Source: Candidatus Nitrosotenuis aquarius (GTDB taxonomy: Archaea > Thermoproteota > Nitrososphaeria > Nitrososphaerales > Nitrosopumilaceae). Taken from it: a stretch of 32,000 nt of DNA. The position numbers and the translations under genes were made by a program. The notes under the pieces are model-generated. The model was not told the DNA's origin, searched no databases, and was given only the letters and a program-made list of their open reading frames with translations. Positions 8,603 to 14,932 of the stretch are shown here, in pieces (within the stretch, counting starts at the first letter, position 1; the number at the start of each line of letters is the position of its first letter). The DNA lies in NCBI RefSeq assembly GCF_002787055.1, contig NZ_CP024808.1, positions 460,328 to 492,327 of the forward strand, given 5' to 3'.

Positions 8603-9334
8603 TTGGCAGACATAACTATTGGGATTGCCGCAATTGCCGGACTGGGCTCATTTCTGGCACCATGCATTCTGCCTGTGATTCCAGCATTTTTGGCCTATAT
8701 CTCAGGCACGACAATTACTGATCTTCAGAGAAACCGCGGCATGCAAAGCCTGGCGACAAGCAAACTAAACATTTTACTAAACACAATATTTTTTGTTCTT
8801 GGATTTTCCATAGTTTTTTCAATATTTGGCGTGATACTAAACAGCGTACTTGTTAACAATGCAACCAATCTGATTTCAAGTTTTAACCAGATAGGAGGAG
8901 CAATAATTATCGGATTTGGAGCGTTCATGTTATTATCAACTAGAATTACGAAACTGAACTTTGAGAAGAAAATTTTCCCAAAGGTAGGAAAAGTAAGCTA
9001 CACGCTCTCGTTTGTGTTCGGCTTGGCGTTTGCGACAGGATGGACTCCATGCATTGGTCCGATTCTCGGAAGCATTCTCACATTAGCTGCGACAACACCA
9101 AGTCAGGCATTTACGTTGCTGCTTGCATATTCCATCGGATTGGGAATTCCGTTTATCCTAATGGGGGTATTTTTTTCAAAAATGACTCGAGTCATTAATG
9201 TGCTGAGCAGACATCTGAAATATTATTCCGTCATAATGGGAGGGCTAATCATACTGCTTGGAGTCCTAGTTTTAACAAACCAGCTTGCGACAATAGCTAG
9301 TTTTCCCATTTTGAACAATTTGTTACTTGGATGA
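8603..9334 (+). CDS. ccdA: CcdA/DsbD-family transmembrane thiol-disulfide electron transporter
   Basis: 243-aa polytopic membrane protein with the two conserved cysteine motifs FLAPCILPVIP and GWTPCIGPILG. The start codon is TTG. Confidence 0.85.
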   Translation: MADITIGIAAIAGLGSFLAPCILPVIPAFLAYISGTTITDLQRNRGMQSLATSKLNILLNTIFFVLGFSIVFSIFGVILNSVLVNNATNLISSFNQIGGAIIIGFGAFMLLSTRITKLNFEKKIFPKVGKVSYTLSFVFGLAFATGWTPCIGPILGSILTLAATTPSQAFTLLLAYSIGLGIPFILMGVFFSKMTRVINVLSRHLKYYSVIMGGLIILLGVLVLTNQLATIASFPILNNLLLG

Positions 9335-9338
9335 TATT

Positions 9339-10418
9339 ATGAAACCAGAGATAAGAACTGCATTAATCATGGGCGCAATAATTTCAGGACTAGTCGGTGG
9401 GCTAGGCACATATTTTTCCACTCTAGACCAACCTGATGATTTTACTGCACAAGACATGTCCAAAACTGACAAGAGCCGCTTCAAAAAGGCCCCAGAACTA
9501 GTCGGAATTGCAGGCTATATCAACTCGGATTCAACATTGCAGGAAGAGATCAGAGGCAAAGTAGTCCTATATGACATTTGGACATATAGCTGCATAAACT
9601 GCCAGCGAACCCTCCCATACATTACAGCATGGGATGAGAAATATTCAGACCAAGGACTAGTAATAATAGGAATACATTCGCCTGAATTTGAATTTGAAAA
9701 AGACATCAACAATGTAAAACGAGCAGTGGAAAAATTTGGAATAAAATATCCAGTGGTACTAGACAATGACAAAAAAACATGGGATGCGTTTGAAAATAGA
9801 TACTGGCCAAGAAAATATCTTGCAGATGATGAAGGATACATCAGATATGATCACATCGGCGAGGGAGCATATGATGAAACTGAAATGGTCATCCAGGAAT
9901 TACTAGAAGAGCGAGCAGAAAAGCTTGGAATCAAGGTATCTGCGCAGCCGCTAGTGGACATCGAACAATACAGACACGGATCTCGAACTCCAGAGCTGTA
10001 CTTTGGATATGACTTTGCGTTTGGCCGAAGTCAGATTGGAAACCCCGAGGGATTCAGACCAAACCAAGAAGTAACATACACAATACCAGACAAACTACAT
10101 GAAAACAATTTCTATTTGGATGGAACCTGGAAAAACCTTGAAGACAGAATGATATTGACATCAGAGTCAGGCAGAATTGTTTTGCCATACTTTGCAAAAC
10201 AAGTAAACATTGTGGCTGCCGGAGAATCAGAGATACAGATATTGCTTGATGGCAAAACAATTTCAGCTCAACATGCCGGCACAGATGTCAGAGATGGCAA
10301 AACAGCCATCAAAGAGGCCACGCTGTACAACCTAGTCAGTATGGAAGAGTCGTCATCTCACGTACTAGAGATTCAGGCAAGATCTGGCTTTGAAATCTAT
10401 ACGTTTACCTTTGGTTAG
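9339..10418 (+). CDS. Membrane-anchored thioredoxin-like (redoxin) protein with a C-terminal beta-rich domain, DipZ C-terminal-like
   Basis: It has a signal-anchor (MKPEIRTALIMGAIISGLVGGLG) and a redoxin domain with WTYSCINCQRT (CxxC) and YWPRKY, followed by about 150 further aa. ATG at 9339 lies 5 nt after the ccdA stop; the track ORF begins at an upstream TTG at 9327. Confidence 0.8.
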   Translation: MKPEIRTALIMGAIISGLVGGLGTYFSTLDQPDDFTAQDMSKTDKSRFKKAPELVGIAGYINSDSTLQEEIRGKVVLYDIWTYSCINCQRTLPYITAWDEKYSDQGLVIIGIHSPEFEFEKDINNVKRAVEKFGIKYPVVLDNDKKTWDAFENRYWPRKYLADDEGYIRYDHIGEGAYDETEMVIQELLEERAEKLGIKVSAQPLVDIEQYRHGSRTPELYFGYDFAFGRSQIGNPEGFRPNQEVTYTIPDKLHENNFYLDGTWKNLEDRMILTSESGRIVLPYFAKQVNIVAAGESEIQILLDGKTISAQHAGTDVRDGKTAIKEATLYNLVSMEESSSHVLEIQARSGFEIYTFTFG

Positions 10419-10503: not shown

Positions 10504-11154
10504 ATGGGGTCATTAAGCGACAAATGGAATGATTTTGGAAGATCAGAAAGCCTCACACAAAAAATTGTCGATAAAGTAAAGCCAGACGTCCCACTCAAAA
10601 ACAAAATCGACGTAGCCCAGAAAAACCTCCAACTACAGATTGTCAAACTGGACGGAATCTCTCAAAAAATAAAACAAAAACACGATTACATTTTCAGCAA
10701 AATAGTTTCAGCACAAAAATCAAACAACAACTTGCACGCAAAGGCATATGCAACCGAATTATTGGAAATTAGAAAAATGCACAACATGGTAAATGGTGCA
10801 AAACTCGCACTAGAACAAATTCAGCTCAGACTTAACACAGTGTCAGAGCTTGGAGACATCGTGGTGACATTGAGCCCATGCATGTCTGTAATCAAGGGGC
10901 TAGGCAGCTCACTTTCTGGAATAATGCCAGAGGCAACATCATCGATGCAAAACCTCTCGCAAATACTAGGCGATGTGCTAACTGGATCTTCAATGAATGC
11001 TGCAGATGCCACGGTGTCCACATATAGTCCAAATTCAGACACGCTTGCAATACTAGAGGAAGCCCAAGCAGTAATTGAAGGCCAAGCAAGGGCAAGCATT
11101 CCAGAACCACCAACAAGCATAGCTAGTCAAGCAAGAAGAGAATCAATCATTTAG
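10504..11154 (+). CDS. cdvB: ESCRT-III / Snf7-family protein (CdvB paralogue)
   Basis: 216 aa with a predicted long helical hairpin pattern typical of Snf7/CdvB (KNLQLQIVKLDGISQKIKQK...ELLEIRKMHNMVNGAKLALEQIQLRLNTV). The C-terminal tail has a proline-rich IPEPP motif. No winged-helix extension is present. Confidence 0.75.
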   Translation: MGSLSDKWNDFGRSESLTQKIVDKVKPDVPLKNKIDVAQKNLQLQIVKLDGISQKIKQKHDYIFSKIVSAQKSNNNLHAKAYATELLEIRKMHNMVNGAKLALEQIQLRLNTVSELGDIVVTLSPCMSVIKGLGSSLSGIMPEATSSMQNLSQILGDVLTGSSMNAADATVSTYSPNSDTLAILEEAQAVIEGQARASIPEPPTSIASQARRESII

Positions 11155-12377: not shown

Positions 12378-12436
12378 GGCGATCTTGGATTAATTCTGAG
12401 ATTAGTTTAATAACCCAAATCAGGCGTAAAATTATC

Positions 12437-12682
12437 ATGAATAAGATTATGTCTGCCGCAATCTTTGCATCAGTTGTCCTAATGTTCGGCACAGTCGCAT
12501 CAGTACTAGAAATGGTACCAGATGCAGAGGCAATAAAGGCAAGAGGCACGTATCTGAAGGATACTGCTTCGAGTCAGAGACATACAGCATCCAAAGTCTG
12601 TGGCGACCAATTATGTGGAGGACTGATTGACTCGTCAACAGGATTGAAAAAGGGACAAATCAGCAGAGGCTTTTCAAGATAA
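12437..12682 (+). CDS. Small secreted/anchored protein, VCGDxLC family member 1
   Basis: 81 aa. It has an N-terminal hydrophobic signal segment (SAAIFASVVLMFGTVASV) followed by QRHTASKVCGDQLCGG. A TATA-like TTTAATAA box is centred about 27 nt upstream of the ATG. Confidence 0.55.
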   Translation: MNKIMSAAIFASVVLMFGTVASVLEMVPDAEAIKARGTYLKDTASSQRHTASKVCGDQLCGGLIDSSTGLKKGQISRGFSR

Positions 12683-12698
12683 GCACGACATCCTCTGA

Positions 12699-12725
12699 CT
12701 TTTTACTTTTTTAAACTAAAAAATA
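12699..12725. terminator. Bidirectional oligo-T terminator region between convergent genes
   Basis: The sequence CTTTTTACTTTTTTAAACTAAAAAAT lies in the 46-bp gap between the stops at 12682 (+) and 12729 (-). It gives T-tracts on both strands, the usual archaeal termination signal. Confidence 0.4.
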
Positions 12726-12728
12726 GAA

Positions 12729-13001
12729 TTATTGCCCTTTAATTTTCAGTAATTCTTGGTGTGTGTATGTATCGTATGGAGATTTGAATGTCTTTGACTT
12801 GAAGTTCCATTTGAAATATGGTTGACCTTCGCATAATTGATCACCACAGACACTGTTTCCCATCCATTTTGAGATCTTGTGTCTCTGCAGACCTTTACCT
12901 GAGGACTTTTTTGCTTCTGCAAATTGTCCTGCCTCGAGTGCATTAATTACTGTCATGGACAATAATATGCTGACTCCAATTAATGCTGCTAATTTGAGCA
13001 T
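12729..13001 (-). CDS. Small secreted/anchored protein, VCGDxLC family member 2
   Basis: From ATG 13001 the product begins MLKLAALIGVSILLSMTVINALEA, followed by ...QRHKISKWMGNSVCGDQLCEG. The longer ORF (start 13040) would contain the ATTAATTAAT TATA-like box that aligns with the promoter of the paralogue at 13314. Confidence 0.6.
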   Translation of the reverse strand: MLKLAALIGVSILLSMTVINALEAGQFAEAKKSSGKGLQRHKISKWMGNSVCGDQLCEGQPYFKWNFKSKTFKSPYDTYTHQELLKIKGQ

Positions 13002-13049
13002 GTTTTTGCTGAACTTTATTGCATTAATTAATCCATCCATTTATCGATA

Positions 13050-13071
13050 TTTCAAAACTCGAATTTAGAAA
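13050..13071. repeat. Near-palindromic box copy 1 (TTTCAAAACTCGAATTTAGAAA)
   Basis: Identical to copy 3. 18 of 22 positions are self-complementary. It lies 18 nt after the stop of the 13090-13314 gene and 17 nt upstream of the TATA-like box of the 12729-13001 gene. Confidence 0.8.
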
Positions 13072-13089
13072 TAAAGAATTTTAATGGTG

Positions 13090-13314
13090 TTAGTTATGTG
13101 GAGCGCTCTTGCCTATTCGCTTGACGGTTTTAAGGTGCGTGCCCTCTTTACAGAGCTCATCACCACAGACCTTCTTTGACCATTTGCTGAATTTGTGCTT
13201 TGGAGAGTCTTTTGCCGGCTTTGCGTCTGCTGGTTGATCGGCTGAGAAGCCCATCAATAACGCGCCAGAAAGCAATACTGCCATTGCTACAAGACCCATT
13301 GTTTTAGCAGCCAT
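13090..13314 (-). CDS. Small secreted/anchored protein, VCGDxLC family member 3
   Basis: 74 aa with the signal segment GLVAMAVLLSGALLMGFSA, followed by a Lys-rich PKHKFSKWSKKVCGDELCKEG. An AATTAATTA box is centred about 28 nt upstream of the ATG. Confidence 0.65.
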   Translation of the reverse strand: MAAKTMGLVAMAVLLSGALLMGFSADQPADAKPAKDSPKHKFSKWSKKVCGDELCKEGTHLKTVKRIGKSAPHN

Positions 13315-13360
13315 GTTAAACGTACCAATTGCTGTCTAATTAATTGATCTTTTTGTAATG

Positions 13361-13382
13361 TTTCAAAACTCGAATTTAGCAA
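13361..13382. repeat. Near-palindromic box copy 2 (TTTCAAAACTCGAATTTAGCAA)
   Basis: One mismatch to copies 1 and 3. It lies 6 nt after the NUDIX stop and 14 nt upstream of the TATA-like box of the 13090-13314 gene. Confidence 0.8.
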
Positions 13383-13388
13383 TATTTG

Positions 13389-13838
13389 TCATTTGTGCCT
13401 AGAATTCAACGCGTCACGAATCATCTTTTTGTGATGTGGCAAGGTCTTGCCAGGCAGCCTTGTAAAAAACCCATAGTCATCGCTTTGGTAATCTGTCTTG
13501 ATTTTTCCCCTTGATGGCACCACTATGAATCCATGCGAAATATCATGACGGAATTTGTTGAGGCTCTCATAGACTCCAACAAATCTTTTGATTTTTACAT
13601 TGAGGTTTAGCTCTTCTTTTGCGGATCTTTTGACTGCGCCTTGCAGAGTTTCATCCTTGTGGACCATGCTTCCAGGCAAATGCCAGTATCCCTTGTATGG
13701 ATTTCTGGTTCTTCTAGTCAGCAGGACAGACTTGCCATCAAGTATTATCAGGTCAACACATGAAAAAGCAAAATACTTTCTAAAGTGTTCATAGTCTTTT
13801 TGCGGTGCTTTTTTGACCAAGTTTTGGCAGACCCCCAC
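13389..13838 (-). CDS. NUDIX hydrolase
   Basis: The Nudix box is GSMVHKDETLQGAVKRSAKEELNL (Gx5Ex7REx2EExG-like). The GTG start at 13838 is uncertain. Confidence 0.85.
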   Translation of the reverse strand: MGVCQNLVKKAPQKDYEHFRKYFAFSCVDLIILDGKSVLLTRRTRNPYKGYWHLPGSMVHKDETLQGAVKRSAKEELNLNVKIKRFVGVYESLNKFRHDISHGFIVVPSRGKIKTDYQSDDYGFFTRLPGKTLPHHKKMIRDALNSRHK

Positions 13839-14406
13839 CTTTTGGAGTAAAACTGGGCTAAATTAACCAATTCTGTATGCCTAAAAATCCAAGATTTGGT
13901 AGAAATTTTGCCAATATTAGAAAACATCAAATTTTGCAAAACCATTCGTAAATGCTAAACCCCCCGGTATGAAGGCCTGGCTTACTCATGTAGTGATTTT
14001 TTCAAAAATGCTCAAAAACCATGGGGGTTTAACGTTTGTGCGTAACTAATACAGGCAAGCACCAAAACACCCCCATTGCCCAGCTAAGGACCTTGCAATT
14101 ATTTTTGATACGAGTAAAAGCTAAACCCCCGGTTTTTGGCAATTTTTTACCATTTTTTGGGTCAGTTTTTGATACCAAGTTTTGGTCTTTTTTCATCATT
14201 TTCTAAATTGAGTTTACTGGTGGTTTTTTGGAAAAATGTGCCCTCATTTCCCCATATTCTAAAATGGAAAATAATGGTAAATTTTTTAGAAAAAATAGAT
14301 AGAACTAGATGGGTTTTGTATCACACCACAATGCAAAACCAGGTAGTTTTGCGCGTATTTTTGTATTGTCGTAATTTAACACTGGTAGTACGGGGTTTAA
14401 ACTAGA
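13839..14406. other. 568-bp ORF-poor, T-tract-rich spacer carrying four G5/C5 repeat units in two inverted pairs
   Basis: The units are GCTAAACCCCCCGGT (13954-13968), AAAAACCATGGGGGTTTAACG (14014-14034), GCTAAACCCCCGGTTTTT (14120-14137) and CGGGGTTTAAAC (14391-14402). Several T5-T6 runs occur on the plus strand. Only low-quality ORFs are present. Confidence 0.6.
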
Positions 14407-14655
14407 CTAGTTTGTAAGGGTGACCTTTTCGCGGTTTTCTATGATTTCTACTTCTATTGTTTCCAACGGATCTTCTACCTGATTTCGCCTAATTGATAAT
14501 AATTTGGGTTTCTCAAAGTCCACCGTACAATCAGGACATGCATATACCAAGACCCTATGTTCGTTTGGCGCCTTTGGATTTGATAATCTGGGGTAATAGG
14601 TCAGTCTGCCACCGCAATCAATACAATAACGGTTGGCCCTTCTAGTTCTGGCCAT
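14407..14655 (-). CDS. Hypothetical zinc-ribbon protein
   Basis: 82 aa with CIDCGG...CPDC (two CxxC pairs). A strong Shine-Dalgarno GGAGGT sits 6 nt upstream of the ATG. Confidence 0.6.
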   Translation of the reverse strand: MARTRRANRYCIDCGGRLTYYPRLSNPKAPNEHRVLVYACPDCTVDFEKPKLLSIRRNQVEDPLETIEVEIIENREKVTLTN

Positions 14656-14746: not shown

Positions 14747-14768
14747 TTTCAAAACTCGAATTTAGAAA
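14747..14768. repeat. Near-palindromic box copy 3 (TTTCAAAACTCGAATTTAGAAA)
   Basis: Identical to copy 1. It lies 24 nt upstream (minus-strand sense) of the TTTATACATTTA TATA-like box of the zinc-ribbon gene. Confidence 0.8.
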
Positions 14769-14828
14769 TATTACACACAACACACATGCAAACCGGACTT
14801 GATGATTTGCCATCAGCAAAAACAAATA

Positions 14829-14850
14829 TTTCAGAATTCGAATTTAGAAA
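14829..14850. repeat. Near-palindromic box copy 4 (TTTCAGAATTCGAATTTAGAAA)
   Basis: Two mismatches to copy 1, with a perfect 10-bp central palindrome AATTCGAATT. It lies 5 nt beyond the 3' CCA end of tRNA-Asn. Confidence 0.75.
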
Positions 14851-14855
14851 GATTA

Positions 14856-14932
14856 TGGCGCCGCCCGTCAGACTTGAACTGACGACCCCCTGATTAACAG
14901 TCAGGCGCTCTACCACGCTGAGCTAGGGCGGC
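14856..14932 (-). tRNA. tRNA-Asn (anticodon GTT), CCA encoded
   Basis: The reverse strand reads GCCGCCCTAGCTCAGCGTGGTAGAGCGCCTGACTGTTAATCAGGGGGTCGTCAGTTCAAGTCTGACGGGCGGCGCCA. The acceptor stem is GCCGCCC/GGGCGGC, the D arm GCTC/GAGC, the anticodon stem CCTGA/TCAGG with loop CTGTTAA, and the T arm GTCAG/CTGAC with loop TTCAAGT. It is much more GC-rich than its surroundings. Confidence 0.95.

What the first reader, a model, noticed from the sequence alone, without database searches (positions are those of the whole stretch)
12437..13314. Cluster of three paralogous small secreted proteins sharing an unrecognised His...VCGD(Q/E)LC motif
Three ORFs sit within 900 bp: 12437-12682 (+), 12729-13001 (-) and 13090-13314 (-). 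Each encodes an N-terminal hydrophobic signal or anchor segment, an acidic/Ala junction (PDAEA, ALEA...AEA, PADA) and a Lys-rich stretch. These are followed by a near-identical core: QRHTASKVCGDQLCGG, QRHKISKWMGNSVCGDQLCEG and PKHKFSKWSKKVCGDELCKEG. After the signal segment the only cysteines in each protein are the C-G-D-x-L-C pair. A conserved His lies 6-11 residues upstream of the first Cys. The two minus-strand copies also share upstream architecture (palindromic box, then an ATTAATTA TATA-like box, then ATG about 27 nt later), which suggests a tandem duplication of a whole expression cassette. I do not recognise this as a named family. A 4-residue disulfide loop or a His/Cys2 metal (Cu/Zn) site on a short basic secreted peptide are both plausible. 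The latter would be relevant in a lineage whose energy metabolism is copper-centred. Extracytoplasmic thiol-redox genes (DsbA-like, CcdA, Trx-like) occur in the same window, but linkage is not demonstrated.
Basis: partly seen in the sequence, partly recalled or inferred. Interest (0 to 1): 0.7.

Follow-up and report, generated by a model that had tools for sequence, protein, structure and literature searches.

The report
Cys-loop tag of exported archaeal proteins
Three tiny neighbouring genes of an ammonia-oxidising archaeon (Nitrosotenuis) encode exported mini-proteins that are stand-alone copies of an undescribed N-terminal cysteine-loop segment, which many unrelated exported proteins of this archaeal family also carry, so it looks like a shared handle or address tag rather than a dedicated His/Cys metal site.

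Summary
Three real, paralogous genes sit at 12437-12682(+), 12729-13001(-) and 13090-13314(-). Each encodes an N-terminal hydrophobic segment, an AxA junction, a Lys-rich stretch and an invariant VCGD(Q/E)LC with exactly two cysteines. Orthologues occupy the same slot in about 20 Nitrosotenuis species, with dN/dS of 0.15-0.19. No Pfam, NCBIfam, PDB or literature entry covers them.

The interpretation needs correcting. An exhaustive profile search shows the motif is not private to these peptides. It is the N-terminal head of at least 150 protein clusters of Nitrosopumilaceae, 53 to 1219 aa long. The consensus is signal segment, A-[DE]-A, K-[AS]-x-G, [YF]-G-S-x-T, VCGD[RK]LCSE. Passenger domains are unrelated: plastocyanin, metallo-beta-lactamase, Kazal, MopE, TSP3, SnoaL, lectin. 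The upstream His is kept in B and C orthologues but lost in about half of A orthologues and in 119 of 135 wider members, so it is not part of the core.

Best reading (inferred): a Sec-exported head stapled by a disulfide, acting as a shared docking or retention handle. The trio are head-only basic mini-proteins. B and C share a 22-bp perfect palindrome upstream of the TATA box, a widespread Nitrosopumilaceae cis element. Function is untested.

The parts
12437..12682 (+). Gene A, 81 aa. It has a hydrophobic N-terminus, PDAEA, then IKARGTYLKD...SKVCGDQLCGG and a basic tail. It is the closest of the three to the general head consensus (K-A-x-G-T-Y).
   Evidence: Orthologues are 55-98% identical. 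dN/dS is 0.16.
12406..12413 (+). TATA-like box TTTAATAA of gene A. The ATG lies 23 nt downstream, so a leaderless mRNA is inferred. There is no palindrome here.
   Evidence: Conserved as GTTTAATAA in all 12 A-type upstream regions.
12599..12616 (+). CGDQLC loop of A.
12729..13001 (-). Gene B, 90 aa. It has a hydrophobic N-terminus, FAEA, then KKSSGKGLQRHKISKWMGNSVCGDQLCEG and a conserved aromatic/basic tail PYFKWNFKSKTFKSPYDTYTHQELLKIKGQ.
   Evidence: dN/dS is 0.19. The start at 13001 is supported by the TATA position.
12831..12848 (-). CGDQLC loop of B.
13024..13031 (-). TATA box (TTAATTAA) of gene B, 22 nt upstream of the ATG.
13050..13071 (.). 22-bp palindromic operator-like box upstream of the B TATA box. 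The consensus is TTTCTAAATTCGAATTTAGAAA.
   Evidence: 4 window copies against 0.01 expected; conserved in orthologous promoters.
13090..13314 (-). Gene C, 74 aa. It has a hydrophobic N-terminus, PADA, then KPAKDSPKHKFSKWSKKVCGDELCKEG and a basic tail. It is the only one of the three present in every Nitrosotenuis locus examined.
   Evidence: (P0010 is identical, from Ca. Nitrosotenuis aquarius). dN/dS is 0.15.
13150..13167 (-). CGDELC loop of C.
13337..13345 (-). TATA box (AATTAATTA) of gene C, 22 nt upstream of the ATG.
13361..13382 (.). 22-bp palindromic box upstream of the C TATA box.
14747..14850 (.). Two further copies of the same palindrome (14747-14768 and 14829-14850). They lie between tRNA-Asn and the Zn-ribbon gene 14407-14655(-). 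They probably belong to the same regulon as B and C.

Best explanation
A, B and C are independently transcribed genes whose mRNAs are probably leaderless. They encode small Sec-exported proteins that consist of little more than a lineage-specific N-terminal 'Cys-loop head'. The head is a hydrophobic export segment, an A-x-A junction, a Lys-rich stretch, an aromatic-Gly element and V-C-G-D-x-L-C. The same head opens many otherwise unrelated extracytoplasmic proteins of Nitrosopumilaceae. In those it is followed by a polar low-complexity linker and then the working domain.

Proposed mechanism:
1. Export through Sec.
2. Cleavage after A-x-A. This is favoured, at about 60%; otherwise the segment stays as a membrane anchor.
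3. Oxidation of the two Cys into a disulfide. The disulfide closes a four-residue Gly-Asp turn and staples a short beta-hairpin.
4. This small cationic knob acts as a common handle. It docks or retains its carrier on a component of the cell envelope, either the membrane surface or the inner face of the S-layer.

The trio are head-only versions with short, conserved, basic tails (mature pI about 10). On this reading they are small envelope-associated peptides, not enzymes. B and C are co-regulated through a 22-bp palindromic site placed just upstream of BRE/TATA.

Shown: gene reality, paralogy, membership of the wider head family, motif invariance, promoter architecture.
Inferred: cleavage, disulfide, docking role, regulation.
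For: Gene reality: 108 homologues, fixed synteny in about 20 species, dN/dS of 0.15-0.19.

Wider family:
- The exhaustive profile search gives 150 listed hits of 53-1219 aa, all matching over profile positions about 1-70. Of 149, 144 carry [VI]CGxx[LIM]C, starting at median residue 50.
- Trio and wider-head profiles align at 99.1% probability. With the signal segment removed they still align at 97.7%, E = 2e-12.
- Passenger domains are unrelated: plastocyanin, metallo-beta-lactamase, Kazal, MopE, TSP3, DUF7482, SnoaL, DUF1264, ConA-like lectin, Calx-beta/NHL.
- The 35 residues after the loop are enriched in P/E/K/S/T/D/Q (59% against 46%) and contain no Trp.
- The long members show no C-terminal hydrophobic anchor.

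The unit is self-contained. It occurs twice in tandem in several proteins (P0174, P0218, P0245, P0291, P0303-P0313).

Core chemistry:
- C, G, D and C are invariant, and V and L nearly so.
- AlphaFold models only a helix for the hydrophobic segment and a two-residue hairpin exactly at the loop.
- A DsbA-like oxidoreductase is encoded in the window.

A size range from almost nothing to more than 1000 aa behind one short conserved tag is the pattern seen for sorting signals such as PEP-CTERM and PGF-CTERM. That comparison rests on established knowledge, not on a test here.

Promoters.
Against: No experiment bears on cleavage, disulfide state or binding partner.

The hydrophobic segment is long, about 19-22 residues, with AlphaFold helices at 2-23 and 3-26. 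That length fits an uncleaved anchor as well as a signal peptide.

The structure models are of low confidence, with pLDDT of 60-64, so the hairpin is weakly supported.

The head is not universal. Only one head ORF was found in 0.56 Mb of other Nitrosopumilaceae DNA. No dedicated processing enzyme or receptor has been identified.

The tails of B and C are themselves well conserved, so the trio may have a function unrelated to the head.

His is retained in B, C and a fourth short paralogue type. Several head proteins have Met/His-rich or Cu-related passengers, which keeps a metal role open.
Confidence: 0.4

Rival explanations
1. Metal-binding peptides. The Cys pair, the loop Asp and the upstream His would bind Cu or Zn in the pseudo-periplasm. 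The peptides would act as small metallochaperones or buffers.
For: His is kept in 18 of 18 C and 12 of 13 B orthologues. A fourth short paralogue type is His-rich just before the loop: KHHHAHHVGNQVCGDKIC in P0131 and P0288. A soil-type branch has His inside the loop (CGDHIC) and Met-rich tails (P0290-P0312). Head-bearing proteins include plastocyanin, MopE Cu-binding repeats, Met/His-rich 'HxxHQxQMxxMW' proteins and Cys-rich metallothionein-like tails.
Against: His is absent in 6 of 11 A orthologues and in 119 of 135 wider members. The invariant residues are C-G-D-x-L-C with flanking V, typical of a tight turn. There is no CxxC, no Met and no second His in the core. Zn hydrolases, Kazal inhibitors, lectin and SnoaL domains carry the same head, so it is not tied to Cu proteins. 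The export compartment encodes DsbA-like oxidases, which favours a disulfide.
Confidence: 0.15
2. Uncleaved signal-anchor micro-proteins. The hydrophobic segment would stay in the membrane. A, B and C would be single-pass small membrane proteins whose juxtamembrane Cys loop and basic tail contact a membrane complex, as accessory subunits or regulators.
For: The hydrophobic stretch is 19-22 residues long and is modelled as one confident helix. The conserved polar run between the helix and A-x-A ([DE]-x-x-Q-x-A-[DE]-A) is longer than a usual c-region. Long head-bearing enzymes lack any other anchor.
Against: A at positions -3 and -1 is nearly invariant across at least 250 sequences, which is the signal-peptidase I rule. 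The Cys-loop unit also occurs as an internal second copy far from any membrane segment. No partner complex is indicated by the gene neighbourhood.
Confidence: 0.15
3. Secreted cationic antimicrobial peptides, analogous to pediocin-like class IIa bacteriocins. The disulfide-stapled N-terminal hairpin would be the target-binding part.
For: The mature peptides are 43-60 aa, have a pI of about 10 and carry one C-x4-C loop. B reads K-W-M-G-N-S-V-C-G-D-Q-L-C, which superficially recalls Y-G-N-G-V-x-C-x4-C (a comparison from memory). Copy number is variable: A or B is missing in several species.
Against: There is no Pfam bacteriocin hit even at E up to 10. The YGNGV box is not present. No immunity gene or export ABC transporter lies in the syntenic block. 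The same head sits on ordinary enzymes. The locus is in a housekeeping neighbourhood and is vertically conserved.
Confidence: 0.05
4. Precursors of processed signalling peptides or RiPPs. The head would be a leader, and the conserved tails would be released or modified.
For: The proteins are small, have a conserved head and subfamily-specific conserved tails. A fourth paralogue lies directly downstream of a response-regulator receiver gene.
Against: No modifying enzyme, protease or transporter is adjacent in any of about 20 loci. The head is shared with large enzymes.
Confidence: 0.04
5. Spurious or decaying ORFs with no function.
For: The ORFs are short and have no database family. A or B is absent in some species.
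Against: dN/dS is 0.15-0.19. Promoters are conserved, with TATA at a fixed 22-23 nt from the ATG. There are 108 homologues. The motif is invariant.
Confidence: 0.01

Closest known systems
Short sorting or anchoring tags on exported proteins: PGF-CTERM and PEFG-CTERM/archaeosortase, PEP-CTERM/exosortase, Gram-positive YSIRK-G/S signal peptides, and the Bacteroidetes lipoprotein export signal
   Same: A short conserved segment next to a membrane-transit signal is shared by otherwise unrelated exported proteins of one lineage. These include mini-proteins that are little more than the tag. A low-complexity linker lies between the tag and the passenger.
   Different: The head is N-terminal and lies after the presumed signal-peptidase site, not at the C-terminus. 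It is built around a C-x4-C loop. No cognate sortase-like enzyme is known. It can be duplicated in tandem. Whether it sorts anything is untested.
Class IIa (pediocin-like) bacteriocins
   Same: Both are small cationic exported peptides with an N-terminal C-x4-C disulfide loop preceded by an aromatic-Gly-Asn element.
   Different: There is no YGNGV box, no Pfam match, and no immunity or transporter genes. The leader is Sec-type. The same head is present on enzymes, and the lineage is archaeal.
Periplasmic Cu-handling peptides and proteins (CopZ/Atx1 MxCxxC, Sco CxxxC+His, PcoE/SilE and Mets-motif proteins)
   Same: They are also extracytoplasmic, small and Cys/His-containing. Some head-bearing relatives have Met/His-rich or cupredoxin passengers.
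   Different: The Cys spacing is x4 with an invariant Gly-Asp. No conserved His or Met lies in the core. No ferredoxin-like or thioredoxin fold is present. The head also occurs on proteins unrelated to Cu.
Pfam DUF6215 (weak sub-threshold hits)
   Same: It has an N-terminal hydrophobic segment followed by a short polar region.
   Different: The scores of 12-15 bits are well below the 27.1-bit cut-off. The match is to the hydrophobic segment only.

Membership tests
Nitrosopumilaceae N-terminal Cys-loop head (unnamed; defined here) | N-terminal hydrophobic segment followed by A-x-A. | tested here: met
   A has PDAEA, B has FAEA and C has PADA. The A columns are nearly invariant in alignments of 90, 38 and 57 sequences.
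Nitrosopumilaceae N-terminal Cys-loop head (unnamed; defined here) | [VI]-C-G-D-x-[LI]-C about 50 residues from the start, with these two as the only Cys of the head. | tested here: met
   The loops are at residues 55-60 (A), 52-57 (B) and 50-55 (C). The family median start is residue 50.
Nitrosopumilaceae N-terminal Cys-loop head (unnamed; defined here) | Profile-level homology to the head of long, multi-domain members, independent of the signal segment. | tested here: met
   hhalign gives 99.1% over the full length. Over the mature part only it gives 97.7%, E = 2.3e-12.
Nitrosopumilaceae N-terminal Cys-loop head (unnamed; defined here) | K-[AS]-x-G and [YF]-G-S-x-T elements between A-x-A and the loop. 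| tested here: inconclusive
   A keeps K-A-R-G-T-Y. B and C replace the second element by H-K-x-S-K-W(-x-G-N).
Class IIa pediocin-like bacteriocins | YGNGV consensus box before C-x4-C, and a Pfam bacteriocin class II match. | tested here: not met
   The box is absent: B has W-M-G-N-S-V-C, with a one-residue register shift, and A and C lack it. There is no Pfam hit at E up to 10.
Class IIa pediocin-like bacteriocins | Adjacent immunity gene and dedicated ABC exporter or accessory gene. | tested here: not met
   The neighbours are NUDIX, a Zn-ribbon gene, tRNA-Asn, ribosomal protein genes and unknown cytoplasmic proteins.
Lipoproteins (lipobox) | [LVI]-[ASTVI]-[GAS]-C at the end of the signal peptide, with Cys as the first mature residue. 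| tested here: not met
   The first Cys lies 19-27 residues after A-x-A and is preceded by K/S-V.
c-type haem attachment (CX2-4CH) | His immediately after the second Cys. | tested here: not met
   The second Cys is followed by G-G, E-G or K-E in the trio, and by S-E in the wider family.
HMA/Atx1-type or Sco-type Cu sites | MxCxxC, or CxxxC plus a distal His, in a ferredoxin-like or thioredoxin fold. | tested here: not met
   The Cys spacing is x4. There is no Pfam HMA or Sco hit. No fold is predicted, with pLDDT of 60-64.
   His is conserved in B and C but in only 5 of 11 A orthologues and in 16 of 135 wider members.
Archaeosortase substrates (PGF-/PEFG-CTERM) | C-terminal motif, TM helix and basic tail. 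| tested here: not met
   The trio ends in polar basic tails. The long head-bearing proteins show no C-terminal hydrophobic segment.
Sec signal peptide cleaved by signal peptidase I | Actual cleavage after A-x-A. | not testable with these tools
   Only the -3/-1 rule could be checked, and it is met. SignalP, DeepTMHMM and N-terminal proteomics were not available.

The most novel reading that the evidence does not exclude
The Cys-loop head is a new kind of N-terminal, post-signal-peptide address or retention signal. Alternatively, it is a built-in thiol or Cu(I) hand-off site. Either way it defines a dedicated subset of the pseudo-periplasmic proteome of ammonia-oxidising archaea, including their plastocyanins and other metal proteins. 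On this reading the head-only trio acts as free competitors or regulators of the same receptor and is switched by the palindrome-binding factor.
Probability: 0.2. Interest if true: 0.8.

Novelty: new variant of a known kind. Interest (0 to 1): 0.55.

Why it matters
Ammonia-oxidising archaea run their energy metabolism in the space between the membrane and the S-layer. How proteins are addressed to that space, retained in it and matured there is essentially unknown.

A conserved 30-residue head shared by plastocyanin-type, metallo-hydrolase, protease-inhibitor and adhesin-like proteins gives a concrete, testable handle on that question. It also gives a sequence signature for annotating a class of 'hypothetical' exported proteins that current domain libraries miss.

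For the three genes themselves, the result moves them from 'possible new Cu peptides' to 'minimal members of a larger exported-protein head family'. That changes which experiments are worth doing.

Tried and rejected
1. Pfam and NCBIfam scans of the trio at E up to 10 gave only sub-threshold noise: DUF6215, GST_C, CclA, SPIN. Scans of 30 long head-bearing proteins found passenger domains, but none covers the head.

2. The head profile against PDB sequences gave 0 hits at E up to 10.

3. Two AlphaFold runs were made: B with a 90-sequence alignment and A with a 57-sequence alignment. pLDDT was 64 and 60. Only the hydrophobic helix and a two-residue hairpin were modelled. I therefore did not run fold searches, because they would be meaningless on such models.

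4. A word-indexed homologue search with the general head alignment returned only proteins of 123 aa or fewer and almost no names. It did not help to tie the head to named N. maritimus genes, so published proteome and transcriptome data could not be linked.

5. Literature searches found no description of the head or of the palindrome. I searched for the motif strings, for secretome and sorting-signal terms in ammonia-oxidising archaea, and for the palindrome sequence.

6. I tested whether the palindrome marks a head-specific regulon, and rejected the idea. A metagenome scan hit more than 120 contigs. Only 1 of 101 downstream ORFs carries the head. The recurrent targets are a Zn-ribbon protein, a 147-149-aa protein and a Snf7-like protein.

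7. Functional linkage to CcdA, Trx-like and DsbA genes is not supported beyond genus-wide block synteny.

8. Readings as a lipobox, a haem CX4CH motif, a class IIa bacteriocin, or an HMA/Sco site were each rejected on a defining feature (see the membership test).

9. I looked for extra head ORFs in the window. None exists besides the three.
Full report
**1. The observation**

The window is about 40% G+C. It carries three short ORFs at the coordinates given:
- A, 12437-12682 (+), 81 aa.
- B, 12729-13001 (-), 90 aa. An in-frame upstream ATG at 13040 would give 103 aa.
- C, 13090-13314 (-), 74 aa.

Each protein has, in order:
- a 19-22-residue hydrophobic N-terminus;
- an Ala/acidic junction that obeys the A-x-A rule (PDAEA, FAEA, PADA);
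- a Lys-rich stretch;
- the string V-C-G-D-(Q/E)-L-C.

These are the only two cysteines in each protein. The mature parts would be 43-60 aa with a pI of about 10. Protein C is identical to a protein recorded from Candidatus Nitrosotenuis aquarius (P0010). The window therefore comes from that organism or a very close relative.

**2. The genes are real**

- A profile of the three proteins retrieves 108 proteins. They fall into three orthologue groups of 81-82, 90/103 and 74-75 aa. Every named source is Nitrosotenuis.
- In species-representative genomes the genes occupy one fixed slot in about 20 Nitrosotenuis species. The order is S8, L6, tRNA-Asn, Zn-ribbon gene, NUDIX, C, B, A (opposite strand), four unknown genes, Trx-like, CcdA, BioF, BioB.
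- C is always present. B is missing in four loci and A in about seven, so copy number is dynamic.
- Pairwise codon analysis gives median dN/dS of 0.16 (A), 0.19 (B) and 0.15 (C), at dS of 1.3-1.6. That indicates clear purifying selection.
- A fourth short paralogue type of about 65 aa lies elsewhere in these genomes, directly after a response-regulator receiver gene. It reads ...KKGVRNHTAHYIGNQVCGDQLCDGSPYVKKVR, and some versions are His-rich.

**3. Promoters**

All three genes have their own TATA box, with the ATG 22-23 nt downstream:
- A: TTTAATAA at 12406-12413.
- B: TTAATTAA at 13024-13031.
- C: AATTAATTA at 13337-13345.

This spacing implies leaderless mRNAs (an inference from archaeal promoter geometry). 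It also fixes the start of B at 13001, because the TATA box lies inside the 103-aa extension.

B and C additionally share a 22-bp element about 10 nt upstream of the GATCARTTAATTAA block. Across species its consensus is the perfect palindrome TTTCTAAATTCGAATTTAGAAA. The window has four copies within three mismatches, against 0.01 expected. They are the B and C sites plus two sites (14747-14768 and 14829-14850) between tRNA-Asn and the Zn-ribbon gene 14407-14655.

The downstream genes are chiefly homologues of that Zn-ribbon protein, a 147-149-aa protein and a Snf7-like protein. Only 1 of 101 downstream ORFs has the Cys loop.

No paper in the library contains its sequence.

**4. What the motif really is**

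No Pfam or NCBIfam model reaches threshold on the trio.

An exhaustive HMMER search with a 90-sequence alignment against 1.84 billion representative proteins gave 150 listed hits at E up to 1e-3, which is the length of the list. Beyond the Nitrosotenuis orthologues, these are proteins of 53 to 1219 aa. The whole profile matches their first 60-75 residues or so. Of 149, 144 carry [VI]CGxx[LIM]C, starting at median residue 50, with a 5-95% range of 42-67.

The consensus of this wider set is:
- a hydrophobic segment;
- [QP]-x-A-[DE]-A;
- x-K-[AS]-[KQ]-G-[TV];
- x3-[KQ]-[YF]-G-S-A-T-K;
- x2-V-C-G-D-[RK]-L-C-S-E.

After the head comes a stretch enriched in P/E/K/S/T/D/Q (59% against 46% in the rest, and no Trp). 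Unrelated domains follow:
- plastocyanin/azurin;
- metallo-beta-lactamase, including a GntH-like hydrolase;
- Kazal repeats;
- MopE Cu-binding and TSP3 repeats;
- DUF7482, SnoaL-like and DUF1264;
- ConA-like lectin;
- Calx-beta/NHL/PKD;
- Met/His-rich helical regions and Cys-rich metallothionein-like tails.

None of these Pfam or NCBIfam hits covers the head. The long proteins have no C-terminal hydrophobic anchor.

Named sources are Nitrosopumilus sp., Nitrosarchaeum sp., Nitrosopumilaceae archaeon and Nitrosotenuis.

The trio profile aligns to the wider-head profile at 99.1% probability. After all columns up to A-x-A are removed, it still aligns at 97.7%, E = 2.3e-12. The relationship therefore does not rest on the hydrophobic segment. 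A is closest to the general consensus (AEA-IKARGTY...SKVCGDQLC). B, C and the fourth type form a branch with H-K-x-S-K-W(-x-G-N) before the loop.

In several proteins the 25-30-residue unit ending in KVCGDxLCS occurs twice in tandem (P0174, P0218, P0245, P0291, P0303-P0313). It is therefore a self-contained unit.

The head is not on every exported protein. In 0.56 Mb of other Nitrosopumilaceae DNA I found one genuine head ORF. That suggests a few to perhaps ten or so per genome, which is a rough estimate.

**5. The His**

It is replaced in 6 of 11 A orthologues, where the sequence reads KKNR or KKDR. It is present within 5-12 residues of Cys1 in only 16 of 135 wider members, against 89 of 106 in the trio family.

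The invariant columns in three independent alignments are C, G, D and C, with V and L nearly invariant. A general His/Cys2 site is therefore not supported.

A branch-specific metal role cannot be excluded. The fourth paralogue type can be His-rich (KHHHAHHVGNQVCGDKIC). A soil-type branch has CGDHIC and Met-rich tails.

**6. Structure**

AlphaFold2 was run on B with the 90-sequence alignment and on A with a 57-sequence alignment that included general-head proteins. Mean pLDDT was 64 and 60. Both models show a confident helix for the hydrophobic segment (2-23 and 3-26). The only other feature is a two-residue beta bridge on each side of the G-D turn. The rest is modelled as disordered. No PDB sequence matches the head profile. 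I did not run fold searches on such models.

**7. Mechanism (best reading, mostly inferred)**

1. The proteins are exported through Sec. No twin-arginine motif is present.
2. The nearly invariant A at -3 and -1 argues for cleavage by signal peptidase I. The long hydrophobic stretch keeps an uncleaved anchor possible. I put cleavage at about 60%.
3. In the oxidising extracytoplasmic space, and with a DsbA-like protein encoded at 763-1542, the two Cys most likely form a disulfide. It would close a four-residue Gly-Asp turn. V, L and the upstream aromatic residue would form a minimal hydrophobic contact, giving a stapled hairpin.
4. The same head precedes many unrelated passengers through a flexible linker. 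It can be repeated, and it ranges from head-only mini-proteins to proteins of more than 1000 aa. I therefore read it as a shared docking, retention or address handle rather than a catalytic or cofactor site.
5. On this reading A, B and C are head-only, strongly basic envelope peptides with subfamily-specific conserved tails. B and C are switched together through the palindromic site.

**8. Rivals**

- A metal-binding peptide (0.15).
- An uncleaved single-pass micro-protein that contacts a membrane complex (0.15).
- A pediocin-like antimicrobial peptide (0.05). This is rejected on the YGNGV box, on the Pfam result and on the lack of immunity or export genes.
- A signalling-peptide or RiPP precursor (0.04).
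- Spurious ORFs (0.01).

**9. Neighbourhood**

CcdA (8603-9334), a TlpA/ResA-like thioredoxin-fold protein (9327-10418) and a DsbA-like protein (763-1542) are in the window. Their association with the trio is only genus-wide block synteny. The block also includes bioB and bioF, a Snf7-like gene and the ribosomal protein operon. Marine relatives that keep these neighbours lack the trio. No functional link is shown.

**10. Novelty and verdict**

The head is absent from Pfam, NCBIfam and PDB sequences. Searches of the paper library for the motif strings and for related topics found no description of it.

In kind it resembles lineage-specific sorting or anchoring tags. It differs in position (N-terminal, after the signal segment), in chemistry (a C-x4-C loop) and in having no known partner enzyme. 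I classify it as a new variant of a known kind.

Interest is moderate to good (0.55). The three genes alone are a genus-specific curiosity. They nevertheless point to an unannotated feature of the exported proteome of ammonia-oxidising archaea that can be tested directly.

Noticed in passing
window 13050-13071, 13361-13382, 14747-14768, 14829-14850; loci L026-L145: A 22-bp perfect palindrome, TTTCWAAATTCGAATTTWGAAA (TTC-N4-TTCGAA-N4-GAA), lies just upstream of TATA boxes. It occurs on more than 120 metagenome contigs, mostly marine Nitrosopumilaceae. The genes downstream of it recur: a Zn-ribbon protein, a 147-149-aa 'RDNVERWLIHE' protein, a Snf7-like protein, bioB and small membrane proteins. 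It is probably the site of an undescribed global regulator. The sequence is in no paper searched.
   Followed up: partly
window 14407-14655 (-): This 82-aa CxxC...CxxC Zn-ribbon protein with an acidic C-terminus is highly conserved from Nitrosotenuis to marine Nitrosopumilus. The palindrome always lies about 90 nt upstream of it. No Pfam family matches. It is a candidate autoregulated binder of the palindrome, which is speculation.
   Followed up: partly
window ~13942-14131 (gap between NUDIX 13389-13838 and the Zn-ribbon gene): This non-coding stretch is conserved at 70-84% nucleotide identity in 15 Nitrosotenuis loci. It contains GGGGGTTTAGC(W)TTTAC twice and the complement GTTAAACCCCC once. 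RNAalifold pairs the complement with the 3' copy. All these pairs are invariant, so there is no covariation evidence. No Rfam family matches. It is possibly an unannotated structured RNA with alternative pairings.
   Followed up: partly
L019 6001-6186, L021 6001-6126, L146-L149 (gene at 6001-6198 in L146): A fourth short head-only paralogue type of about 65 aa has a His-rich stretch before the loop in some versions (KHHHAHHVGNQVCGDKIC). It is located directly downstream of a response-regulator receiver gene. A DsbA-like gene and CbtA/CbtB genes lie a few kb away.
   Followed up: partly
proteins P0119, P0126, P0136, P0148, P0167, P0192, P0201, P0206, P0209, P0253, P0257; L024 3561-3728: The largest sub-group of head-bearing proteins has a Met/His-rich helical region (…HxxHQxQMxxMWxxM…) with no Pfam match. 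Some members end in Cys-rich metallothionein-like repeats. They look like extracytoplasmic metal-binding proteins of ammonia-oxidising archaea.
   Followed up: no
proteins P0174, P0218, P0245, P0291, P0303-P0313: These proteins carry tandem duplications of the 25-30-residue unit that ends in KVCGDxLCS. An example is NVGSQDVIGRPGYQPDKVCGDRLCS repeated twice.
   Followed up: no
L013 (Ca. Nitrosotenuis chungbukensis MY2, NZ_CP130341.1 1291302-1303568): Many housekeeping genes in this locus (L6, the Snf7-like gene, the Trx-like gene, CcdA, BioF, BioB) give split, frame-shifted tblastn hits. This suggests indel errors in that assembly rather than pseudogenes.
   Followed up: no
window 14856-14932 (-): A tRNA-Asn (GTT) gene lies here. 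One palindrome copy starts 5 nt after its 3' end.
   Followed up: yes
window 12683-12728: The 46-nt convergent spacer between A and B has oligo-T runs on both strands (TTTTTACTTTTTT and TTTTTTAG). These are consistent with archaeal terminators for both genes.
   Followed up: no
window 10504-11154 (+): This 216-aa protein has a weak Snf7 (ESCRT-III) match, at E = 0.14. Its marine homologues also have the palindrome about 120 nt upstream.
   Followed up: no
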